Shown: positions 10,873 to 64,000, counted from the first letter of the stretch. The stretch: DNA of 64,000 nucleotides from Candidatus Parcubacteria bacterium (GCA_003599595.1 QZIP01000011.1:2638-66637), one strand, 5' to 3'. Notes: generated from the letters alone by a model not told the origin. Program-made: numbers and translations.

Positions 10873-11430
10873 ATGCCAATTTACACCAAAAAAGGAGATC
10901 AAGGGCAAACATCACTTCTAAATAAACAAAAGGTCTGGAAAAATTCCCAAAGGACAACTGCTTATGGAACTATCGATGAATTAAATAGTCTACTCGGTGT
11001 CGTAGTTGCCGAAATTGAAAACTCAGAATTCATGATTCATGATTCAGAATTCAAAAATCGGATAATTAGTATCCAAAATGACCTATTTCACATTGGTTCG
11101 TCTCTTGCCAATCCAGACAGTGATAAGGTTGACATCAATCTTTTAGAAAAAGTAAAAGATTTTGAAAAAAATATTGATGAAATGACAGCTCAAATGCCGC
11201 CCCTAAGTGCGTTTATTCTTCCCGGAGGGGGAAGAGTAGGATCTCTTTTTCAGTTTGCCCGCGCCACGGCTCGTCGTGCCGAAAGAGAAGCAGTTGCACT
11301 TTTTCAAAAAGAAAAAATCCAAGAAAATATTCTTGTTTATCTAAACCGCCTTTCAGACTTGCTCTTTACTTTATCCCGCTTTGCAAATTATAAGGAAAAT
11401 AAAAAAGAAGTCATTTGGAAAAAATCCTAG
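10873..11430 (+). CDS. pduO: PduO-type ATP:cob(I)alamin adenosyltransferase
   Basis: MPIYTKKGDQGQTSLLNKQKVWKNSQRTTAYGTIDELNSLLG matches the PduO/MMAB-family N-terminus. Contains a short low-complexity insert (SEFMIHDSEF). Confidence 0.85.
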   Translation: MPIYTKKGDQGQTSLLNKQKVWKNSQRTTAYGTIDELNSLLGVVVAEIENSEFMIHDSEFKNRIISIQNDLFHIGSSLANPDSDKVDINLLEKVKDFEKNIDEMTAQMPPLSAFILPGGGRVGSLFQFARATARRAEREAVALFQKEKIQENILVYLNRLSDLLFTLSRFANYKENKKEVIWKKS

Positions 11431-11479
11431 ACACCTCAACAACTTAAATACTTAGTCGTTGCTAGTAAAGCGATAAAGT

Positions 11480-11529
11480 CACCTCGGATGGTGGCCAAGC
11501 AACGACTTGGACTCCTCCGGGGTGGAGGT
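11480..11529. repeat. GC-rich hairpin repeat, copy A (CACCTCGGATGGTGGCC...GGACTCCTCCGGGGTGGAGG)
   Basis: Shares its ends and core with copies at 13150-13198, 15162-15202, 36505-36650 and 62521-62577. Confidence 0.6.
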
Positions 11530-11604
11530 ATTGAGAATAAACGTTGAGGAAATAAATAACGTAAATTAAGTCTTGAATAAATACTAATATACTAGTATAT
11601 TAGT

Positions 11605-11745
11605 AGCACTGTTGGTTTAACCACTGCCCTGTTGAATAACGGGGTGGGAAGGTTGAAGATTTTGGGAATTAGGTGTAAATCCTAAACTGTGCCGCAGCGG
11701 TAATTTCGATCATCTCGAATAAGTCCGAAGACCGACCAACATTGA
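11605..11745 (+). promoter_or_regulatory. Candidate cobalamin (AdoCbl) riboswitch aptamer with non-canonical element order
   Basis: B12-box-like CCACTGCC...GGGTGGGAAGG (11621-11652). Then GGGAAttaGGTGtAAaTCC...CCGCAGCGGTAA (11664-11702), matching the GGGAA-N3-GGTG-N-AA-N-TCC / CCCGC core consensus with exact spacing. Then GAAGACCGACC (11726-11736). An intrinsic terminator follows. Context: directly downstream of nrdJ and pduO. Confidence 0.35.
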
Positions 11746-11783
11746 TCCCGAGCAGGAAACTGAAAATATATTTGAAGTTTAAC

Positions 11784-11807
11784 CTTCTCGAGAGAGAAGG
11801 TTTTTTT
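11784..11807 (+). terminator. Rho-independent terminator, possible riboswitch expression platform
   Basis: Perfect hairpin CCTTCTC-GAGA-GAGAAGG followed by TTTTTTT. Confidence 0.7.
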
Positions 11808-11955
11808 ATGGTCTAAAAAAAGCGGCGCCTAAATTTTGCTTGTCCCTCATAGCTTTAGCGAAGTGGGAAATTTTGAACTTTTTAAGGGTGTCTCCTTGAG
11901 GAGTATATTCAATTATGCTCAATGCGACGAAAGGTGACTCCCTTATAGAAATAAT

Positions 11956-13110
11956 ATGTCATTTAAAACAGAACAGTCTCATTATCAGACAATAGATGTT
12001 GCAAACAGAAATAGAGAAGTGGTTGGTTCAAGAGCCTGCAATCTAGAATATCTTTCCCATGTTACAGATGAGGAAATTAGAGACGATATTGTTTCTTATC
12101 TTGGGGAATATAGATTTAAACTCCAAAAATTTGATTACAAATTGGCTTTGGTAAAAGATAGTGATGGGAAAGTAGATCTTTGTGATCCACACCGTCTGGA
12201 GTCTATGTCTATTAAGTCAAAAAGAGCTATTGAGGAAAGAAAAGCAGCCGGTTTACCAACTCATAGGGAAGAAGCAGAAGAAACTGGAATAAGTCACTTA
12301 AAAGATCAGCTTAGATTTGCAAGAATAGGAGATAGGATATTTTGGGCAAGTCCTCCAGGGCCCAAAAGTGAAGGTTATGGAAACTATGGATTTTTATATT
12401 CAGGAAAAGTTTCGCAAATAAACTTTAACACTCAGGGAAAAGCTCAATATTTGGACATAGATATGACAGCAATAAGAGTAGAAAATCCTAGCATAGCAGA
12501 ATTTAACCAAGCAATGAGTGCTCTTACGGGAATAAAGTTTGATAACAGAGTTGCAGATGAATTTTTAGAACAGCCTGTGGTAACTAGAAGGTCAGTAAAA
12601 GATAGAGAAGTGGATAGTGTTATTTGTCAAAATTTTGACTTATCAGCTGATCAAAGAGAAAAATTTGATCAGGTTATTGCAGGTCTCGAGTCACAATTGT
12701 TAATAGATGACCTTATAAAAATTATCAGAACAGGATCAAGAGAAGAAAGAATTAAGGCCTTTTACACTCTTGAAAATTATGCCTTAAAGCTTAAGTCAGA
12801 AACAGCTCTCAATGAAAAAGTATTATACTTGAATGATTATAAAAAGAGAAAGTCTTTACAGGAGTTAGCAGTTTACTACAGCTATAGGCCTCCCATAGCT
12901 TTTGGCAGTTGCGGCTCAACAGACTCTAGCAATAGCTTAATTGGCTTAGGTTCTCCAAATGTCTTAAGTACTTTAGTCTTTGGCCCATCAAGCGAAAGAA
13001 AGATTCTTGCTTGTAAATGTCCTTCTTGTGAAAGACAAGTAAACGCTGTAATTGAGAACGGAAAAATAACCTGTCCCAAATGCAGCGCCTCAGCAGACTA
13101 CAATTGCTAA
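11956..13110 (+). CDS. Hypothetical protein with C-terminal double zinc ribbon (CKCPSC...CPKC)
   Basis: 384 aa ORF with no recognisable catalytic domain. Sits downstream of the riboswitch-like element and terminator. Confidence 0.55.
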   Translation: MSFKTEQSHYQTIDVANRNREVVGSRACNLEYLSHVTDEEIRDDIVSYLGEYRFKLQKFDYKLALVKDSDGKVDLCDPHRLESMSIKSKRAIEERKAAGLPTHREEAEETGISHLKDQLRFARIGDRIFWASPPGPKSEGYGNYGFLYSGKVSQINFNTQGKAQYLDIDMTAIRVENPSIAEFNQAMSALTGIKFDNRVADEFLEQPVVTRRSVKDREVDSVICQNFDLSADQREKFDQVIAGLESQLLIDDLIKIIRTGSREERIKAFYTLENYALKLKSETALNEKVLYLNDYKKRKSLQELAVYYSYRPPIAFGSCGSTDSSNSLIGLGSPNVLSTLVFGPSSERKILACKCPSCERQVNAVIENGKITCPKCSASADYNC

Positions 13111-13149
13111 AATATCATCAAAAAGATGACTCCCTGAGGAAGAAGCGGG

Positions 13150-13198
13150 TCCTCCTGGAAGGTGGCCCCGCCCCAGACGGGACTCCTTCAAGGTGGAC
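13150..13198. repeat. GC-rich hairpin repeat, copy B
   Basis: CTCCTGGAAGGTGGCCCCGCCCCAGACGGGACTCCTTCAAGGTGGACG, with a related fragment GACTCCCTGAGG just upstream. Confidence 0.55.
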
Positions 13199-13262
13199 GA
13201 GAACGGAAGACACCTCCATACACATCTTGTTTTTTGTTTCATTTCAAAGCTAAAATGAAACT

Positions 13263-13967
13263 ATGTTTAACTTTTTTTTAAATTTTCTTTTTCCCAAAAA
13301 ATGTGTTGGCTGTAAAAAGCTTGGTACATATCTTTGTTCCAATTGTTTTAGTTTTATTTCTTTAAATACCGCATTTGTCTGCCCGGTCTGTACCAGACCC
13401 TCAATTGACGGTTTTACCCATCCCGTTTGCAGAACCAAATACTCTCTTGACGGTCTTATCTCTTGTTATGAGTACAAAGGGGTAGTAAAGAGCCTAATTT
13501 ATAAATTCAAATACAAGCCTTACCTTTCTAGTCTTAAAAATATTACAGGTAAACTTTTTTATGAAGCACTTATTCAGAATGAATTTTTTTATAATATTTT
13601 AAAAGAAAAACCAATCCTAATTCCTATTCCTCTTCATAAAAGCAAAGAACGCTCCCGTGGATATAACCATGCCCAGATTTTGTTAGAACGTATATCAAAA
13701 GATATCAGATTGCCAATTTATCCAAAAATCTTGTTTAGAACAAAAAACACCAAGCCTCAGTTTGGTCTAAAAAAAGAGGAGAGGATAAAAAATATAAGGG
13801 GAGCATTTGCTCTTAATTCAAATAATAAAATAGATCTTCGCGGCAAAACAGTTTTCTTGATAGATGATATTGCTACCACCTGTACCACCTTATCAGAATG
13901 TGCCAATGTCTTAAAAAGAAATGGTGCCAAAAAAGTCCTGGGCCTCACCTTTGCAAGGGAAAGGTAA
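13263..13967 (+). CDS. comFC: ComF-family protein (double zinc ribbon plus phosphoribosyltransferase domain)
   Basis: N-terminal CxxC...CxxC...CPVC and a C-terminal PRTase motif VFLIDDIATTCTTL. Confidence 0.8.
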   Translation: MFNFFLNFLFPKKCVGCKKLGTYLCSNCFSFISLNTAFVCPVCTRPSIDGFTHPVCRTKYSLDGLISCYEYKGVVKSLIYKFKYKPYLSSLKNITGKLFYEALIQNEFFYNILKEKPILIPIPLHKSKERSRGYNHAQILLERISKDIRLPIYPKILFRTKNTKPQFGLKKEERIKNIRGAFALNSNNKIDLRGKTVFLIDDIATTCTTLSECANVLKRNGAKKVLGLTFARER

Positions 13968-14583
13968 ATGCAAATATATTTGAATAGAAATAGTACATAA
14001 AATGTAGCACTTCGCTAAAGCTTCGCGCTACACACTTCTTACCCATTTTAAAAGCGTGGTAACCTGTTAATTGTGGCCTTCCACGCGTAGCTCTTTACAA
14101 AGTAAAGAGCGAAGTGTGGAGATGGCCGAGAATGACCCGGCGTCCAAAAACAGTACCTATAAAATATCTACAAGCGTAGTCAATCTTTAATTGTCGTTTT
14201 AGGCTTAACTGATTGACAAGGGTGTCCTAAAACCAAGGTTAAAAGATAATATAAGGTAACCAGCCTCATATCCTTTTCTCAACTTTGTTTATGCCCGTAC
14301 TGTCCCGTTGAGAAGGGTCAATACAGACAGAGCTTAGTTTACGTAAGCAAGATTGCGTTCGTAAGCTAGGTCACTAGAACTTGGTCTAGCATTTATGTTT
14401 TGAGACTGTTTTATCCGCCTGTTAAGGCGAGATCTCGCTTTCGCGGACGGCTGTGTCTCAAAGCCGGCTTGCAATTTTAAAAGTGCTATCTCTGTCGATG
14501 CAATGCATCCCCAAGACCAATATTATACCAAATTTTACCCTCAAAAGCAAAAAATTCAAGCTATAATTAGCTCAAACCACTCA

Positions 14584-15084
14584 TCAACGTATTATTTCTT
14601 TCAATTCTCTTTCAATATCTCTTTGAATATCTTTTTCTTTCAAAAGCTTTTTCTTTTCAAACTGTTTTTTACCCTTGGAAAGTCCTATCTCAAGCTTAAT
14701 CACACTGTTTGAAACATACATAGAGAGTGGGGTAAGGGTAAAATTTCCCTGACTTATTTTGGATTTTAGAGCAATTATTTCTCTTTTATGTAGAAGCAGC
14801 TTTCTGGTTCTGCTTTCATCATAGCCCTCAATCCTTGAAAATTTATAGGGAAATATCTTAGCATTCACCAGATACGCTTCAGACTCCATTATTTTTACAT
14901 AAGAACCTGTAAGATCTGCATGTCCACCTCTGACAGCCTTAACTTCCGATCCCAAAAGCACAATCCCAGCTTCAATCTTCTCAAATATCTTAAATGAGGC
15001 TGGGGCAGTCTTGTTATGTATCTGAACATTTTTTCTTTGGCTATGCTCATTTTTGTTATTTTCAGTAAAATTATTCATAAGCAT
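14584..15084 (-). CDS. smpB: SsrA-binding protein SmpB
   Basis: ...FEKIEAGIVLLGSEVKAVRGG...YLVNAKIFPY...RTRKLLLHKREI...KGKKQFEKK. The likely start is the internal Met (MLMNNF); the longest ORF extends to 15135. Confidence 0.85.
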   Translation of the reverse strand: MLMNNFTENNKNEHSQRKNVQIHNKTAPASFKIFEKIEAGIVLLGSEVKAVRGGHADLTGSYVKIMESEAYLVNAKIFPYKFSRIEGYDESRTRKLLLHKREIIALKSKISQGNFTLTPLSMYVSNSVIKLEIGLSKGKKQFEKKKLLKEKDIQRDIERELKEIIR

Positions 15085-15161
15085 ATTGTAGTGGGTGCAG
15101 GGAAAGCTTTCAAGTAGGACCCAATCTGTACCCAACTAACTCGAGTTTGAAGCGGTTTAAA

Positions 15162-15202
15162 CACCTGGAAGGTGGCCGCATGGACTCCTTCCAGGTGGAG
15201 GA
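15162..15202. repeat. GC-rich hairpin repeat, copy C
   Basis: CACCTGGAAGG-TGGCCGCATGGACT-CCTTCCAGGTGGAGG. A perfect 11-bp stem is formed by CACCTGGAAGG and CCTTCCAGGTG. Confidence 0.6.
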
Positions 15203-15713
15203 AGTTGCAAAGCTGTGGAAGATGAGTATATTTATTGATTGTCATTGCGTAGCGCGGAAATCTTTTGTCAGCGGGATTGTTTTATTGCTAACGCTCTCAG
15301 CAACCAAGTTATGAAGTTAGAGTAGGGCAGTTAAAAAAACCAAGATGAAGCTAAATACGGTAATAAACTATAAGACTAAGAATAAAAATAGTCAAAAATG
15401 TGGATAACTTGTTGATAACACAATATTATAGGTCATAAAATAAGATGATATAAGATGATGTAGTTTGATGTGATAAATGTTGAAAAATGAAAAAAACACG
15501 AAATCTTTTCACGGAATCGATTCGCGTCGCGTCAAGCGCGACTGCCACGTTTGACCTGGGGCGTAAAATTTCCCATGTTTCAGCGATCCTAATAATATAA
15601 TGTTTTGGATTTTGGAAATTTGGATTTGTTTTGCCGGCCTGCAACGCTTTGCGGAGCAATGCGGGCAGGGATTTCGGATTTTGTTATTCGGATTTATTTA
15701 GCAACACTATTCT

Positions 15714-23095: not shown

Positions 23096-25519
23096 TTAGA
23101 TGTTCCCCTTAAATCCTCCACCTTCAGGTCCACCTCTTTCCAATTCCGGTTTTTCTCCAGTATCTGCAAAAACTTCAAAAAGCTTTGATCTTTTTGCAAT
23201 CTCTGCCTCTACCAGATCTTTTGGCCTTCCGCACTTCAGACGTGACAATTCTCTTATAAGTTCTGCTACTCTTGGATTTGCTTGCGAGGTTTCAGAAGAA
23301 ACATCCCGTGTCAAGTCCATAGAAAAGGGTAAAACTGGTTCGCCATTAACTTGTGTTTTGACATACGCATGGTATGCCTCTATGTTTATGAGATCTGCTT
23401 CTGAAAATACGGGTTGAAATTCATGTTGAAGGTAATTTGCATCAGTTACTCCAACCCTGAATGAAACAACTGTTCCCACATTTCCAAAAACCGCATTTTT
23501 AATATCTTCTTCCATCTGTCCAATAAATTGATTTGCAACCGTGAGATTAAGTCTATACTTTCTTGCTTCAGACAGAATTTGAGCAAAATCAGGTGTGGCA
23601 AAATTTTGGAACTCGTCAACATATAAGAAAAAGTCTTTTCTCTTATCTTCAGGAAGATCTTGCCTGGACATTGCTGCCACCAGAATCTTGGGTACTAAAA
23701 TCAATCCCAAGAAGGAAGAATTCTCCTCTCCAATTTTTCCTTTTGCCAAAGAAAAGAGAAGTATTTTCCCTTGGTCCATAACCTCACGCAGGTTAAATGA
23801 GCTTTGGCTCTGCCCAATAATATTTCTCATCATTTTATTTGTTACAAATCTCCCAAACTTAGAAACTATATAATCCATAACTTCAGATTTATGAAAATCA
23901 CTGGTTTGAGCTATCTGATCGGTCCAGTACCTTCTAATAAGGGGATCTTGCACTTTTGGTAAGAGTTCCTGTACAAAAGTTGGATCAGTTAATATTCTCA
24001 TTACTTCAACAAAGGTACTTCCCTCCTCAGACATAACCGTTAGCATAGCATTTCTTACCGCGTGCTCAAACCGTGGTCCTACAATTCCTGTTTGGTGTGG
24101 ATCAAACAATTTCTGCATAAGCCCAAGAATAGAGGCAACCACTAAGTGTTTTTGTTCTTCAGTATGGGCCTCAAGCATATTTAAAGCCATTGGTCTTTCA
24201 GTATCAGATGGGTCAAAAAGGATTACATCCTCAGCTCTTTCAGGAGGAATTAAAGGCAAAAGTTTGTCAATTAAATCATGCGGATCAATAACACATACCC
24301 CATGCCCGTTTTTTATGTCCTGTAAAATCATATCTTTTAAAAATTCTGATTTTCCAACACCGGTTTTTCCAATAATGTACATATGTCTTCTTCTATCTGA
24401 CAATCCTATATGGATAGGCTTACTGATTCCTCTATAAACACTTTTACCAATATAAAGTCCTGAAGTTGGAATATTGGCCGCCGCCGGAGCCGTCCTTGCT
24501 GTAAGCCAGTGGATGTGCGGTGTTTCAACGCTTTTATTAGGAAAATGGAACAACGTTGCAAGTTCTTCAGTGGTTAACAATGATCCCTTACTAAATAAAG
24601 GAATATATCTATATATAAAGTCCGTCATAAACATTCCCTTGAAAAATCTTATCTTCTCTTTTGTAAAAGAGTTATAAGAAGAAAACTGGGTAAATGCGCT
24701 TACCATGTTTGATAGATGGGCATCAGCAGATTCTTTACTGGAAGAAACAACAACAGCTCTCACCCAAGCCTTAAATCCGGGCTTTGTTAACTTCTGGTCA
24801 ATTGCTTCAAGTTCTTTTTGATCTATTGAATATTTTGCTGTTTCAGGATTTGCCTCACGTTTTTTAACCGTTGAAACATAGTTTCTGCCGGTCCCTTTCC
24901 AGTCATCTCCACAAGGTGCAATAAGAATCTGTAAGGCTCCAGCTTCTCCCTGCTGCATTTTTGCCAAAATACTGGTAATGGTAGACAAAGGATCAACAGG
25001 GAGATCTTTATATGTTTTTATTGGAATATAATCAGAAGATTTAAGTTTGAGCCCAGCAAACGCAACTTTGCCTTCTTCATTGAAAATGTTGTATTCTTCA
25101 ACCTCATTTATCTGAGCCCCGGGATAGGATCCGTTAATTTGCTTTTCCACCATATCTTTATATTTATTTGGCACTCCCACATAAAATTTTATATCTCCAG
25201 GTGTTCCTACTATTTCAAAAGAAAGGCTATCTGGCACTTTTAAAAATGAAAAGAACCCGCCTCCGCTTTTAAGAGACATAAGGCTGGTAAACATTTGCTC
25301 GGCTGCATCGATTTTGATTTCATTATCCCGCGGCAAGCTTATCTCAAGAAGGGAAGAGTCTAAAGATTTTATGTGGCGTGCGCGGGCCTTCATCCATAGA
25401 ACAAAAAGATAAAAAAGACCAATGCTTACAACAGCCAAAGCAGAGACAATTAATACTCCAGAAAGTATAACAAAAAGTAAATTTATTAAATTATCAGCAG
25501 AAAACATATTAAGCTGCAT
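23096..25519 (-). CDS. Membrane-anchored VirB4/TraC-family (or VirD4/HerA/FtsK-related) P-loop ATPase
   Basis: N-terminal TM segment (LINLLFVILSGVLIVSALAVVSIGLFYLFVLW), an N-terminal domain of about 300 aa, then a C-terminal ATPase with Walker A YIIGKTGVGKSEF, Walker B LYVDEFQNF and a downstream TVANQ motif. Confidence 0.5.
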   Translation of the reverse strand: MQLNMFSADNLINLLFVILSGVLIVSALAVVSIGLFYLFVLWMKARARHIKSLDSSLLEISLPRDNEIKIDAAEQMFTSLMSLKSGGGFFSFLKVPDSLSFEIVGTPGDIKFYVGVPNKYKDMVEKQINGSYPGAQINEVEEYNIFNEEGKVAFAGLKLKSSDYIPIKTYKDLPVDPLSTITSILAKMQQGEAGALQILIAPCGDDWKGTGRNYVSTVKKREANPETAKYSIDQKELEAIDQKLTKPGFKAWVRAVVVSSSKESADAHLSNMVSAFTQFSSYNSFTKEKIRFFKGMFMTDFIYRYIPLFSKGSLLTTEELATLFHFPNKSVETPHIHWLTARTAPAAANIPTSGLYIGKSVYRGISKPIHIGLSDRRRHMYIIGKTGVGKSEFLKDMILQDIKNGHGVCVIDPHDLIDKLLPLIPPERAEDVILFDPSDTERPMALNMLEAHTEEQKHLVVASILGLMQKLFDPHQTGIVGPRFEHAVRNAMLTVMSEEGSTFVEVMRILTDPTFVQELLPKVQDPLIRRYWTDQIAQTSDFHKSEVMDYIVSKFGRFVTNKMMRNIIGQSQSSFNLREVMDQGKILLFSLAKGKIGEENSSFLGLILVPKILVAAMSRQDLPEDKRKDFFLYVDEFQNFATPDFAQILSEARKYRLNLTVANQFIGQMEEDIKNAVFGNVGTVVSFRVGVTDANYLQHEFQPVFSEADLINIEAYHAYVKTQVNGEPVLPFSMDLTRDVSSETSQANPRVAELIRELSRLKCGRPKDLVEAEIAKRSKLFEVFADTGEKPELERGGPEGGGFKGNI

Positions 25520-36504: not shown

Positions 36505-36650
36505 TACACCTTGGAGGAATCCATTCCTTCGGCTTCGCTCAGGACAAGTCAGCCACAGAGGTGGGGAAACAACGACTTCGGCTCCTCAGATGTCTTCGGC
36601 CGTGAGATCCTCGACTCTGAGGTTCGGACTCGAAGAGCTCAGACCGAACT
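36505..36650. repeat. GC-rich repeat-related intergenic element, copy D (partial or degenerate)
   Basis: GAGGTGGGGAAACAACGACTTCGGCTCCTCAG shares CAACGACTT-GG-CTCCTC with copy A. Additional hairpins are present, for example CTCTGAGGTTCGGACTCGAAGAGCTCAG. Confidence 0.4.
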
Positions 36651-36690
36651 GGGTGAAGTTATATTAACAGCGTGATAAAATGTTTTAGTT

Positions 36691-62285: not shown

Positions 62286-64000
62286 TATGGAGCCAAATAT
62301 CAAGGAAAACCAATCAAATATAAGAAATTTTGCAATTATTGCTCATGTTGACCATGGTAAATCAACTTTAGCAGATAGGCTGCTGGTAATGACAGGGACT
62401 GTATCAAAAGAAAAAATTGGAGAACAATTTTTGGACTCCAATCCTATCGCCCGTGAGCACGGAATAACCATCAAACTCGCACCAGTAAGAATGGAATATA
62501 AATTATCAGATTTAAACCATTCCACCTCGGAGGAGTCATGGCCTCGCAAACTCGGCCTGCCACCGTCCGAGGTGAAGTACATTCTAAATCTTATAGACAC
62601 ACCAGGACATGTCGACTTTTCCTATGAAGTTGTTAGAACCCTACAAGCCTGTGAAGGAGCAGTATTGCTCGTAGACGCTACTAAAGGAATTCAGGCCCAA
62701 ACTGTTGCAAACTATAATTTTGCCAAAAAACTGGGACTCGTAATAATTCCTGTAATCAACAAGATTGATCTTGACAGTGCACAGGTTGAAAAAGCAGAAG
62801 AAGACTTAGTTCTAAGTTTTGGGTTTGACAAACATGAAATCTTGAAAATTTCAGCCAAAAGTGGAGAGAATGTAGAAAATCTGCTTCTTGAGATTATTAA
62901 GAGAATCCCACCACCAACAGGAGACAAAAATGATCCAGCTCAGGCCTTAATCTTTGACTCAATTTATGATGAGCATAAAGGAATTGTGATTTATACAAGA
63001 TTAAAAAACGGCAAGATAAAAAAAGGAGATGAGATAAAATTTATATCAGACAATAGTACTGCAATGGTTCTTGGTACCGGCTATATGCAGCCAATCTACT
63101 CGTTCTCAGAAGAAATCTCAAGCGGAGAAGTGGGTTTTGTTATAACAAATATAAAAGATATTTCAAAAGCAAAAGTTGGGGATACAATAACAACTCTTAA
63201 AGATCCCGGTCCAGCTCTTCCAGGATATATGCCGGTTAAGCCATACGTCTATCTATCTCTCTTTCCTTATTCTGCCTCTGAATTTAACAATTTAAGAAAT
63301 GCCTTCTTAAAGCTGAAGCTTATTGATGCATCCCTATCTTTTACTCCTGAACATTCAGTAATCCTTGGCCCAGGTCTAAGATGTGGTTTTTTAGGACTTT
63401 TACATGCTCAAATTACAATTGAGAGAATAGAAAAGGAATTTGGAATAGATGTTTTTATAGCCCCTCCAAGCATAGAATACATCGTAGACGGTAAAACCAT
63501 TTCCAAACCTCAAGAGTTTGATATGTCAAAAAAGGAAATTTTAGAACCTTATATTAAAGGAGAAATATATACCCCCCATGAATACTTGGGAAATTTATTA
63601 GAACTAATCTATAAAAAAAGAGCAATCCAGAAAGAAATTGTTTATTTTGGATCACAGGTTAAAATTGTTTTTGAAATACCACTATCAGAAGTTGTATTTA
63701 ATTTCTACGACAAAATAAAATCTGCATCTTCAGGTTTTGCATCTTTTGATTATGAATTTTTAGAATACAGAAGAGGAGATCTGGTAAGAGTAGACATTGC
63801 CCTAAATGATAAAGTGGTAGATGAATTATCTTTTATAATTCACAAGTCTGAAACTGAATATTTTGCCCGTGATATTTTATATAAATTAAAAGAAGCAATA
63901 CCAAAACATCAATTTGTGGTGTCTTTGCAGGCAAGGATCGGTGGTAGAGTAATTGCAGGTGAAAAAATAGCCGCTCTTCACAAGAATGTAATTGAAAAAC
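62286..64000 (+). CDS. lepA: Elongation factor 4 (LepA), 3'-partial, with an in-frame repeat insertion in the G domain
   Basis: IRNFAIIAHVDHGKSTLADRLL, REHGITIKLAPVRMEY, LIDTPGHVDFSYEV, VINKIDL. The ORF continues to the window end and is absent from the ORF track for that reason. An extra NHSTSEESWPRKLGLPPSEV segment is encoded by the GC-rich repeat at 62521-62577. Confidence 0.9.
62521..62577. repeat. GC-rich hairpin repeat, copy E, inverted and inserted in-frame in lepA
   Basis: The reverse complement is CACCTCGGACGGTGGCAGGCCGAGTTTGCGAGGCCATGACTCCTCCGAGGTGGA. It aligns with copy A at both arms (CACCTCGGA.GGTGGC ... GACTCCTCC..GGTGGAGG). Confidence 0.6.

What the first reader, a model, noticed from the sequence alone, without database searches (positions are those of the whole stretch)
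11480..15202. Dispersed family of GC-rich hairpin elements of about 45-50 bp (CACCTSGGAWGGTGGCC...GGACTCCTYC..GGTGGAGG)
At least four copies lie in this window besides the lepA insert. They are at 11480-11529 (after pduO), 13150-13198 (after the Zn-ribbon gene), 15162-15202 (upstream of smpB) and a degenerate one at 36558-36589. The ends form a stem (CACCTGGAAGG / CCTTCCAGGTG is perfect in copy C). The loop keeps the conserved blocks GGTGGCC and GGACTCCT. Sequence conservation in the loop argues for a repeat element rather than independent terminators. They lie 3' of genes, so they may double as transcript-end structures.
Basis: seen in the sequence. Interest (0 to 1): 0.6.

Follow-up and report, generated by a model that had tools for sequence, protein, structure and literature searches.

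The report
REP-like hairpin repeats that invade genes
The GC-rich hairpins are real copies of a small repeated DNA element, built like the REP/REPIN repeats of other bacteria and probably moved by a REP-type transposase, and across related uncultured bacteria most copies sit in frame inside ordinary protein-coding genes.

Summary
The window carries four intact copies: 11480-11524 (+), 13152-13195 (+), 15162-15197 (+) and 62523-62574 (-). The last lies in frame inside lepA. A decayed inverted pair lies at 36507-36592.

The elements are not terminators and match no Rfam family. Each is an inverted doublet of a 13-nt unit: [CACCT-NNN-AGGTG]-spacer-[CTCCT-N'N'N'-AGGTG]. It folds into a long hairpin with fixed T.T and G.A mismatches and a swappable tip.

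A strict pattern found over 117 loci, mostly in Microgenomates and other Patescibacteria. The free stem positions covary (98.4% paired, 85 compensatory cells).

Of 132 copies, 77 lie inside long open reading frames. They occur in all three frames and both orientations, within genes from 123 Pfam families. Orthologous genes about 60% identical keep a copy at the same codon, with compensatory stem changes.

A conserved 225-aa Y1 (HUH) transposase family is flanked by the same unit in 24 of 69 loci. Its best NCBIfam hit is REP-associated tyrosine transposase and its best fold match is 4ER8. Two contigs carry both this gene and a matching element.

Best reading: a REPIN/RAYT-type element that is unusually tolerant of coding sequence. 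The transposase link is inferred, not shown for this genome.

The parts
11480..11524 (+). Copy A, intact and intergenic. It lies 50 nt after the PduO-type adenosyltransferase gene and 72 nt before the cobalamin riboswitch. Sequence: CACCTCGGATGGTGGCCAAGCAACGACTTGGACTCCTCCGGGGTG. Tip module AAGCAACGACTT. It carries the extended flanks AAAGCGATAAAGT / GAGGT.
   Evidence: 54.4 bits
13152..13195 (+). Copy B, intergenic, between a 384-aa ORF with no Pfam hit and the ComF-like gene. The 5' foot is CTCCT and the stem has two mismatches, so the copy is slightly decayed.
   Evidence: 48.1 bits
15162..15197 (+). Copy C, the minimal 36-nt form with a perfect 11-bp stem: CACCTGGAAGGTGGCCGCATGGACTCCTTCCAGGTG. 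It lies between the 614-aa ORF (-) and smpB (-), antisense to both.
   Evidence: 61.2 bits
62523..62574 (-). Copy D, inside the lepA coding sequence and antisense to the gene. It is in frame with no stop codon and adds about 20 codons to a G-domain loop. Tip module AGGCCGAGTTTGCGAGGCCAT.
   Evidence: 52.8 bits
62287..64000 (+). lepA (EF4), the host gene of copy D, cut by the window end. It is identical to P0001 (613 aa). The closest homologues (71-74% identity) lack the insert.
36507..36566 (-). Decayed copy with the long tip module ACTTGTCCTGAGCGAAGCCGAAGG (same type as L106 and L036). It has a 3-nt deletion in the 5' arm, GGTGGC changed to TGTGGC, and GACTCC changed to GATTCC.
   Evidence: (9.5 bits)
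36553..36592 (+). Decayed copy with tip module GAAACAACGACTTC (same type as L004, L055 and copy A). It overlaps the previous copy head to head.

Best explanation
The hairpins are copies of a non-autonomous repeated DNA element of the REP/REPIN kind.

Anatomy. The basic unit is a 13-nt palindrome, CACCT-NNN-AGGTG. The dispersed element is two such units in inverted orientation around a spacer: [CACCT-NNN(N)-(A)GGTG]-GC..tip..GA-[CTCCT-N'N'N'-AGGTG]. One DNA strand (or its transcript) therefore folds into a long hairpin with fixed T.T and G.A mismatches and a swappable distal module.

Mobilisation (inferred). Copies are made in trans by a single-copy Y1/HUH transposase of the RAYT type. The enzyme would recognise the hairpin foot on single-stranded DNA. 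This would explain the invariant foot, the covarying middle of the stem, the strand-specific mismatches and the absence of target-site duplications.

Tolerance of coding sequence. The element is GC-rich in an AT-rich genome and has no stop codon in any of its six frames. In-frame copies in tolerant protein loops are therefore read through and kept. The lepA copy in this window is one such case.

What is shown: the anatomy, the family, the covariation, the intragenic in-frame location, and the flanking of RAYT-like genes by the same unit. What is inferred: that this enzyme moves these copies, and that intragenic copies are translated.
For: Copies and fold. There are four strong copies in the window. 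All fold to the same hairpin, with z-scores of -3.3 to -4.5 for three of them.

Family.

Covariation. In 107 distinct copies, 98.4% of cells are paired. There are 85 compensatory cells at the three positions the search pattern left free, and 0 of 500 shuffles reach this.

Intragenic location. 77 of 132 copies lie in ORFs open for at least 60 codons on both sides, 51 in sense and 26 in antisense orientation, in all three frames. The host ORFs hit 123 Pfam families. One PheT gene holds three copies in two different frames.

Absence from homologues. Copies are missing at the same sites in homologues.

Orthologous sites. Orthologue pairs keep a copy at the same codon with compensatory changes. Identity is 85% in the element against 43% at third codon positions.

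Transposase gene.
- A RAYT-like gene lies about 520 nt from a copy in L020.
- Pfam Y1_Tnp scores 1.7e-10. NCBIfam REP-associated tyrosine transposase is the only hit, at 4.5e-13.
- The HUH histidines and the tyrosine are invariant in the family alignment.
- The best fold match is 4ER8, E 5e-4.
- The family has 4539 homologues, some named Microgenomates or Shapirobacteria.

Shared unit. The gene is flanked by CACCT-NNN-AGGTG in 5 of 6 distinct loci first examined; the sixth, L126, carries a CAACCT variant. It is so flanked in 24 of 69 metagenome loci, 20 of them on both sides. The loop triplets there (GGA, CGA, CCG, CTA, GAA, TCG) match those of the dispersed copies.

Matching foot. In L140 both the RAYT flanks and the dispersed copy have the variant foot CACCC/GGGTG.

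Other REP-like traits. Symmetric doublets and overlapping head-to-head arrays resembling BIMEs occur. No target-site duplication is detectable.
Against: - No RAYT gene is present in the 64-kb window, and the rest of this genome could not be read.
- In 569 kb around 80 RAYT genes, only 2 full-type copies were found. Many RAYT-bearing genomes therefore lack a dense population near the gene.
- One element-bearing genome (L168, the same contig as L039) has a RAYT flanked by a different hairpin.
- The RAYT score is below NCBIfam's curated cut-off, and the structure model has only moderate confidence (pLDDT 62).
- REPs are by definition extragenic and carry a GTAG or CGTC tag. Neither holds here.
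- Retention at orthologous sites with compensatory changes could instead mean host-level selection or site-specific re-insertion.
- The search pattern fixed 22 bases, so sequence conservation is partly due to how the copies were selected.
Confidence: 0.65

Rival explanations
1. Selfish palindromic element of the Rickettsia RPE type, unrelated to the RAYT-like gene. It would spread or be homogenised by recombination, gene conversion or an unknown enzyme. The shared CACCT/AGGTG foot would be a coincidence or the result of convergence.
For: Copies lie in frame inside many housekeeping genes. No RAYT is present in the window. Few full-type copies lie near RAYT genes. The hairpin types do not match in L168.
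Against: The 13-nt unit with the same foot, length and loop repertoire flanks RAYT genes far above chance. About 6e-4 matches are expected per 160-nt flank (my estimate), yet 44 of 138 flanks carry one. The variant foot matches between RAYT flanks and dispersed copy in L140. RAYT and a copy are adjacent in L020.
Confidence: 0.15
2. A host-selected structural signal. The hairpin, as RNA or single-stranded DNA, would be kept at particular sites because it does something useful there. Examples are protection of transcript 3' ends, translation pausing, or a binding site for a domesticated RAYT. Mobility would then be secondary.
For: The element sits at the same codon in orthologues about 60% identical, with compensatory stem changes and much higher identity than synonymous sites. 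A copy occupies the same site in the DnaK tail of three Daviesbacteria. Orientation is 2:1 in favour of the gene strand. Copies A and B lie just after genes.
Against: Both orientations and all three frames occur. Hosts span 123 unrelated families, so there is no link to a gene class. No U-tract follows any copy. No Rfam family matches. Decayed copies exist. The conservation estimate is inflated by pattern ascertainment.
Confidence: 0.15
3. Intrinsic terminators or independent GC-rich hairpins that arose separately at gene ends.
For: They are stable hairpins, at -24 to -31 kcal/mol. A and B lie 3' of co-oriented genes.
Against: None is called terminator-like and none has a T-run. Blocks and tip modules are shared across phylum-level lineages. 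Most copies are intragenic.
Confidence: 0.03
4. Sequences removed from the message or bypassed by the ribosome, such as mini-introns or gene-60/byp-like hops, so that the protein is unaffected.
For: They are GC-rich hairpins of 35-64 nt inside genes of an AT-rich genome, which resembles the mitochondrial byp elements (recalled from memory).
Against: The reading frame is continuous through 77 of 132 copies, including 37 whose core length is not a multiple of three. No stop codon occurs in any frame. Indels between orthologous copies are whole codons.
Confidence: 0.02

Closest known systems
REP / REPIN elements with their RAYT (TnpA-REP) transposase, as in Pseudomonas and E. coli (PMC3116915, PMC2817692, PMC8266576)
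   Same: A short GC-rich palindromic unit. Inverted doublets around a spacer that fold into a long hairpin. Compensatory changes that keep the hairpin. BIME-like alternating arrays. A conserved Y1/HUH gene flanked by the same units. Hairpin type that co-varies with the RAYT lineage. No target-site duplication.
   Different: There is no GTAG or CGTC tag. The unit is only 13 nt. The doublet is asymmetric, with fixed CTCCT giving a T.T mismatch. The tip modules are interchangeable. The hosts are Patescibacteria with genomes of about 1 Mb. Above all, the majority of copies are intragenic and in frame, whereas REPs are extragenic by definition.
Rickettsia palindromic elements (RPE; mentioned in PMC1779305; details recalled from memory)
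   Same: Palindromic repeats found in frame inside many unrelated protein-coding genes of a small genome, apparently translated and tolerated in loops.
   Different: RPEs are about 100-150 bp, restricted to Rickettsia and relatives, and have no known transposase. Here the elements are 35-64 nt and have a candidate RAYT partner. Sequence similarity to RPEs was not tested.
IS200/IS605-derived hairpin elements and their TnpA (ISDra2, IS608)
   Same: The same transposase superfamily (fold matches to 2XM3, 2A6M and 2VJU). Recognition of imperfect hairpins on single-stranded DNA. No duplication at the target.
   Different: There are no distinct left and right ends with cleavage-site guides and no tnpB. 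The protein's best matches are RAYT rather than IS200 TnpA.
Classical MITEs (Correia, ERIC, RU-1/2; PMC10969869, PMC2759123)
   Same: Small and non-autonomous, with inverted ends. They are occasionally intragenic and can supply coding sequence.
   Different: MITEs derive from DDE transposons and leave target-site duplications. None is detectable here, and the intragenic share here is far higher.

Membership tests
REP/REPIN-RAYT system | Short GC-rich (imperfect) palindromic unit able to form a hairpin | tested here: met
   The 13-nt unit CACCT-NNN-AGGTG occurs alone beside RAYT genes and as the 5' half of the elements. The folds are consistent.
REP/REPIN-RAYT system | REPIN: two units in inverted orientation around a spacer, forming a long hairpin kept by compensatory change | tested here: met
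   [CACCT-NNN-AGGTG]..[CTCCT-N'N'N'-AGGTG]. 98.4% of cells are paired, with 85 compensatory cells and 0 of 500 shuffles reaching this. Symmetric doublets occur in L128 and L151.
REP/REPIN-RAYT system | Many dispersed copies per genome | tested here: inconclusive
   The window holds 4 intact and 2 decayed copies in 64 kb. There are roughly 50 extra copies in 678 kb of other loci. This extrapolates to tens per Mb, but no whole genome could be scanned.
REP/REPIN-RAYT system | A RAYT gene in the same genome, flanked by the same units | tested here: inconclusive
   Met in L020 and L140, where the gene, matching flanks and a dispersed copy share one contig. 24 of 69 RAYT loci carry the unit. Not met in L168. 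No RAYT is present in the window, and the rest of the genome is unavailable.
REP/REPIN-RAYT system | RAYT protein: Y1/HUH fold with the HUH motif and catalytic tyrosine | tested here: met
   PF01797 at 1.7e-10. NF047646 at 4.5e-13, which is below the curated cut-off. H89, H91 and Y149 are invariant. The best fold match is 4ER8.
REP/REPIN-RAYT system | Extragenic location | tested here: not met
   77 of 132 copies lie inside long ORFs; 36 are clearly non-coding.
REP/REPIN-RAYT system | Conserved GTAG or CGTC tetranucleotide at the 5' foot (PMC3733652) | tested here: not met
   The flank profile shows only A at -1 and R-A at +1/+2. The foot itself is CACCT.
Rickettsia palindromic elements | In-frame copies inside unrelated protein-coding genes | tested here: met
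Rickettsia palindromic elements | Length of about 100-150 bp and sequence similarity to the RPE families | not tested
   The length here is 35-64 nt, which differs. No RPE sequence was available for comparison.
Intrinsic terminator | GC-rich hairpin followed directly by a U-tract, at the 3' end of a gene | tested here: not met
   None of the copies is called by the scan, and the tails are GAGGTATT, GACGAGAA and GAGGAAGT.
DDE-type MITE | Target-site duplication flanking the terminal inverted repeats | tested here: not met
   Direct repeats of 4-8 nt across the element are no more frequent than in shuffled flank pairs.
Any Rfam RNA family | Match to a curated covariance model | tested here: not met
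   There is no match at gathering score in the window, and none up to E = 10 in 11400-15400.
Translational bypass / byp elements | Reading frame interrupted at the element (stop or frame change), with matching take-off and landing codons | tested here: not met
   The frame is continuous and stop-free through the copies.

The most novel reading that the evidence does not exclude
The hairpin may be more than a tolerated parasite. It could be kept by selection at specific codons of housekeeping genes across Microgenomates. Evidence for this is a copy at the same site in orthologues with saturated synonymous positions, with compensatory stem changes and swapped tip modules. If so, a domesticated RAYT-hairpin pair performs a host function on single-stranded DNA or mRNA from inside coding sequence. 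That would be a REPIN-RAYT partnership that has moved into genes.
Probability: 0.15. Interest if true: 0.85.

Novelty: new variant of a known kind. Interest (0 to 1): 0.6.

Why it matters
REP/REPIN elements are regarded as extragenic passengers of large proteobacterial genomes. Here the same architecture, with a likely RAYT partner, appears in the tiny, gene-dense genomes of Patescibacteria. It survives mainly by sitting in frame inside essential genes such as LepA, PheT, DnaK, CarB and ArgS.

This has four consequences:
- It offers one source for some of the odd insertions seen in proteins of these organisms.
- It gives a natural experiment on which protein loops tolerate 12-20 extra residues.
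- It warns annotators and assemblers about a repeat that may break contigs; many of the RAYT contigs are only 1-3 kb.
- It makes testable the question of whether long-lived REPIN-RAYT systems are parasites or partners, because the orthologous intragenic copies can be dated against their host genes.

Tried and rejected
- Rfam, at gathering score and at E <= 10: nothing at the elements.
- Terminator scan: none of the copies is called.
- Viral contigs: only 4 matches, all in one conserved gene of high-GC phages without stem pairing, so chance.
- Exact-protein look-ups meant to recover the rest of the window's contig: not on record.
- GC skew as a proxy for replication strand: no significant link with element orientation (48:65, p = 0.11). 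Orientation follows the gene strand instead, 78:35. The window's own skew simply follows gene orientation.
- Target-site duplications: none above shuffled controls.
- G.T versus A.C mismatches as a test for which strand folds: 8 versus 2, too few to decide.
- PDB sequence search with the RAYT profile: only weak ISDra2 hits at E of about 0.01. The fold search was needed.
- A second RAYT-like gene in L059 has no flanking hairpins.
- Archaeal-type bulge-helix-bulge splicing motif: considered and dropped because the internal loop is symmetric (3x3) and frames are continuous.
- K-turn and SRP-like loops: considered from memory only and not supported by the pairing pattern.
- Literature searches for such an element in candidate-phyla bacteria found nothing.
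Full report
**Observation.** The two-block pattern GGTGGCC..GGACTCCT occurs three times against none in 100 shuffles. A looser search found a fourth copy on the minus strand at 62523-62574. A profile HMM and a covariance model built later both return exactly these four as strong matches, at 48-61 bits with E from 9e-11 to 3e-14.

The minus-strand copy is the 'lepA insert'. lepA starts at 62287 on the + strand and runs off the window. The copy lies antisense to the gene, in frame and without a stop codon, and reads LNHSTSEESWPRKLGLPPSEV between VRMEYK and YILNLIDTPGH. The three closest LepA homologues (71-74% identical) have only four to six residues at that position.

Alignment shows it to be one half of a decayed, overlapping head-to-head pair spanning 36507-36592. 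Each half carries a tip module shared with intact copies elsewhere.

**Anatomy.** All copies fold the same way.
- An 11-bp stem pairs CACCU-NNNN-GG with CC-NNNN-AGGUG. Some copies have a bulged U or C.
- Next comes a fixed U.U, then G-C, then a fixed G.A, then C-G.
- The distal stem-loop varies from 4 to 33 nt.

The 5' half of the element (CACCT-NNN-AGGTG) is itself a 13-nt palindrome. The 3' half (CTCCT-N'N'N'-AGGTG) is its inverted copy with one fixed change, which creates the T.T mismatch. The element is thus an inverted doublet of a 13-nt unit around a spacer. The consensus has no stop codon in any of its six frames (read directly from the sequence). No Rfam family matches. No copy has a T-run or is called terminator-like.

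- Most are Gottesman-, Levy-, Davies-, Curtiss-, Shapiro- and Beckwithbacteria, Berkelbacteria and 'Patescibacteria group'.
- Many are MAGs labelled 'uncultured Gammaproteobacteria' with 35-45% GC. That label looks doubtful.
- A few are Omnitrophota or Planctomycetota bins.
- Five high-GC hits lack stem pairing and are chance matches.

In 107 distinct copies, 98.4% of stem cells pair. The three positions that the pattern left free on both sides carry 85 compensatory cells, and none of 500 shuffles reaches this.

The tips fall into recurrent modules found in distant genomes: CGAATG, GARGCAACGACYTC, AGGCTGAGC..GAAGCCAT and GCTTGTCCYGAGCGAAGTCGAGGG. A subfamily, to which window copies A and C belong, has extended flanks AAGCGnTAAAGA and GAGGAAnCA. 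Viral contigs hold only chance matches.

**The unexpected part: most copies are inside genes.** Of 132 copies, 77 lie in reading frames open for at least 60 codons on both sides. Of these, 51 are in sense and 26 in antisense orientation, and all three frames are used. Another 36 copies are clearly non-coding.

The 71 host ORFs hit 123 Pfam families. These include carbamoyl-phosphate synthase, PheT, FemAB, TsaD/TsaE, TatD, glycosyltransferases and class I tRNA synthetases. One PheT gene carries three copies in two different frames. Alignment with homologues shows the copies as clean insertions.

Continuity of the frame holds even for the 37 intragenic copies whose core length is not a multiple of three. 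This argues that the copies are read through rather than spliced out or bypassed.

**Persistence.** Several host genes are orthologous pairs about 60% identical that carry a copy at the same codon. The stems differ by compensatory changes: CCGA/TCGG versus GAAA/TTTC, CCCA/TGGG versus TCCA/TGGA, and C-G versus G-C. In one pair the tips differ by a whole-codon indel. Three Daviesbacteria share a copy at one site in the DnaK tail.

Across five such pairs the element is 85% identical, against 64% for the rest of the gene and 43% at third codon positions. This figure is inflated because both copies had to match the search pattern, but the coincidence of site is not.

**Link to a transposase.** A motif scan of all loci found one RAYT-like ORF, at L020:1807-2484, about 520 nt from a full copy.
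- It hits Pfam Y1_Tnp at 1.7e-10.
- Its only NCBIfam hit is REP-associated tyrosine transposase, at 4.5e-13 and below the curated cut-off.
- It has 4539 homologues at E <= 1e-10. These are typically 225 aa and 60-72% identical, and some are named Microgenomates or Shapirobacteria.
- The HUH histidines and the tyrosine are invariant.
- A moderate-confidence model (pLDDT 62) matches 4ER8 best (the E. coli RAYT bound to a REP hairpin), followed by the ISDra2 and IS608 transposases.

In L020, L122, L124 and L128 the gene is framed by CACCTCTAAGGTG on both sides; its close duplicate L123 has no room for the upstream hairpin. It is also framed by a gene-proximal inverted repeat, TTGACACCTyTGGTA..TACCsAGGTG. 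L126 has a CAACCT variant.

Among 69 metagenome loci with usable flanks, 24 carry CACCT-N(2-5)-AGGTG next to the gene, 20 of them on both sides. I estimate a chance expectation of about 6e-4 per flank. The loop triplets seen there (GGA, CGA, CCG, CTA, GAA, TCG) are the same as in the dispersed copies. Other RAYT lineages carry other hairpins, as expected if enzyme and hairpin co-evolve.

In L140 both the RAYT flanks and the one dispersed copy have the variant foot CACCC/GGGTG. Symmetric doublets and overlapping alternating arrays complete the resemblance to REPINs and BIMEs. No target-site duplication is detectable, which fits HUH enzymes and not DDE-type MITEs.

**Limits of that link.**
- No RAYT is present in the window, and the rest of this genome was not retrievable.
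- Only two full-type copies occur in 569 kb around 80 RAYT genes.
- In one element-bearing genome the RAYT seen is flanked by a different hairpin (L168).

The enzyme-element pairing is therefore inferred, not shown.

**Mechanism proposed.** A RAYT-type enzyme binds the hairpin foot on single-stranded DNA and copies the doublet. The mismatches mark the active strand. Copies that land in frame in tolerant loops persist because they carry no stop codons. Copies in intergenic DNA, such as A, B and C here, persist freely and may incidentally affect transcript ends.

Orientation follows the gene strand about 2:1 and shows no clear link to GC skew.

**Comparison and novelty.** The closest known system is REP/REPIN-RAYT (PMC3116915, PMC2817692, PMC8266576). 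The elements here fail two of its defining features: extragenic location and the GTAG/CGTC tag. The closest known behaviour is that of the Rickettsia palindromic elements. The RAYT/REPIN literature I searched does not mention candidate-phyla bacteria or intragenic copies. I therefore rate this a new variant of a known kind and of moderate-to-high interest.

Noticed in passing
window 11596-11754 (+) and 11956-13110 (+): A cobalamin riboswitch (60 bits) precedes a 384-aa ORF with no Pfam hit. It lies just downstream of a class II ribonucleotide reductase and a PduO-type adenosyltransferase. The ORF is a candidate B12 uptake or binding gene.
   Followed up: no
LepA homologues P0006, P0007, P0008, P0024, P0044, P0062, P0090 (loop equivalent to window 62500-62580): The same LepA G-domain loop holds unrelated inserts of 10-45 residues in many Levybacteria-like sequences. 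P0090 reads PRPHPGPLLKGEGE, which looks like the translation of a different GC-rich repeat.
   Followed up: partly
L020, L122-L138 and others, directly flanking the RAYT-like gene: A gene-proximal inverted repeat, TTGACACCTnGGTA ... TACCnAGGTG, is conserved even where the outer hairpin differs. The gene therefore sits inside a large version of the same stem. TTGACA may also serve as the -35 box.
   Followed up: partly
L130-L209 flanks: The outer hairpins co-vary with RAYT lineage. Examples are CAACCT..AGGTTG, CCCACTTCGGGAGTGG, ACACCCCCGGGGTGT, CCACCCTCCAGGTGG and CCACTTCGTAGGTGG. This suggests several hairpin-enzyme pairs in these phyla.
   Followed up: partly
L008 879-2408 (-): About six copies are packed into and around a single gene (618-2021).
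   Followed up: no
L003, L031, L042, L046, L072, L080, L083, L086, L101, L104; L005/L079: Head-to-head copies overlap by about 20 nt and share one 13-nt unit. These alternating arrays resemble BIMEs, and some lie inside ORFs.
   Followed up: partly
L001, L003, L005, L007 ... (records titled 'uncultured Gammaproteobacteria', binchicken MAGs): The taxonomic label looks wrong. GC is 35-45%, and for L020 the RAYT homologues are named Microgenomates or Shapirobacteria. Gene content was not checked further.
   Followed up: no
L051, L053, L068, L071, L076, L090: A subfamily with ACGA/TCGT in the stem occurs in bins labelled Planctomycetota and Omnitrophota. This is either transfer beyond Patescibacteria or mis-binning.
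   Followed up: no
window 36590-36660: Another GC-rich inverted repeat, GTTCGGACTCGAAGAGCTCAGACCGAAC, lies next to the decayed pair. It may be a different repeat type.
   Followed up: no
L197 9472 and 10202: A second pair of CACCT-TTA-AGGTG hairpins lies 730 nt apart, 3 kb from the RAYT gene. This may mark a second RAYT copy.
   Followed up: no
window 23096-25519 (-): An 807-aa ORF has weak VirD4/TraG/HerA-type matches, suggesting a type IV secretion or DNA-transfer ATPase.
   Followed up: no
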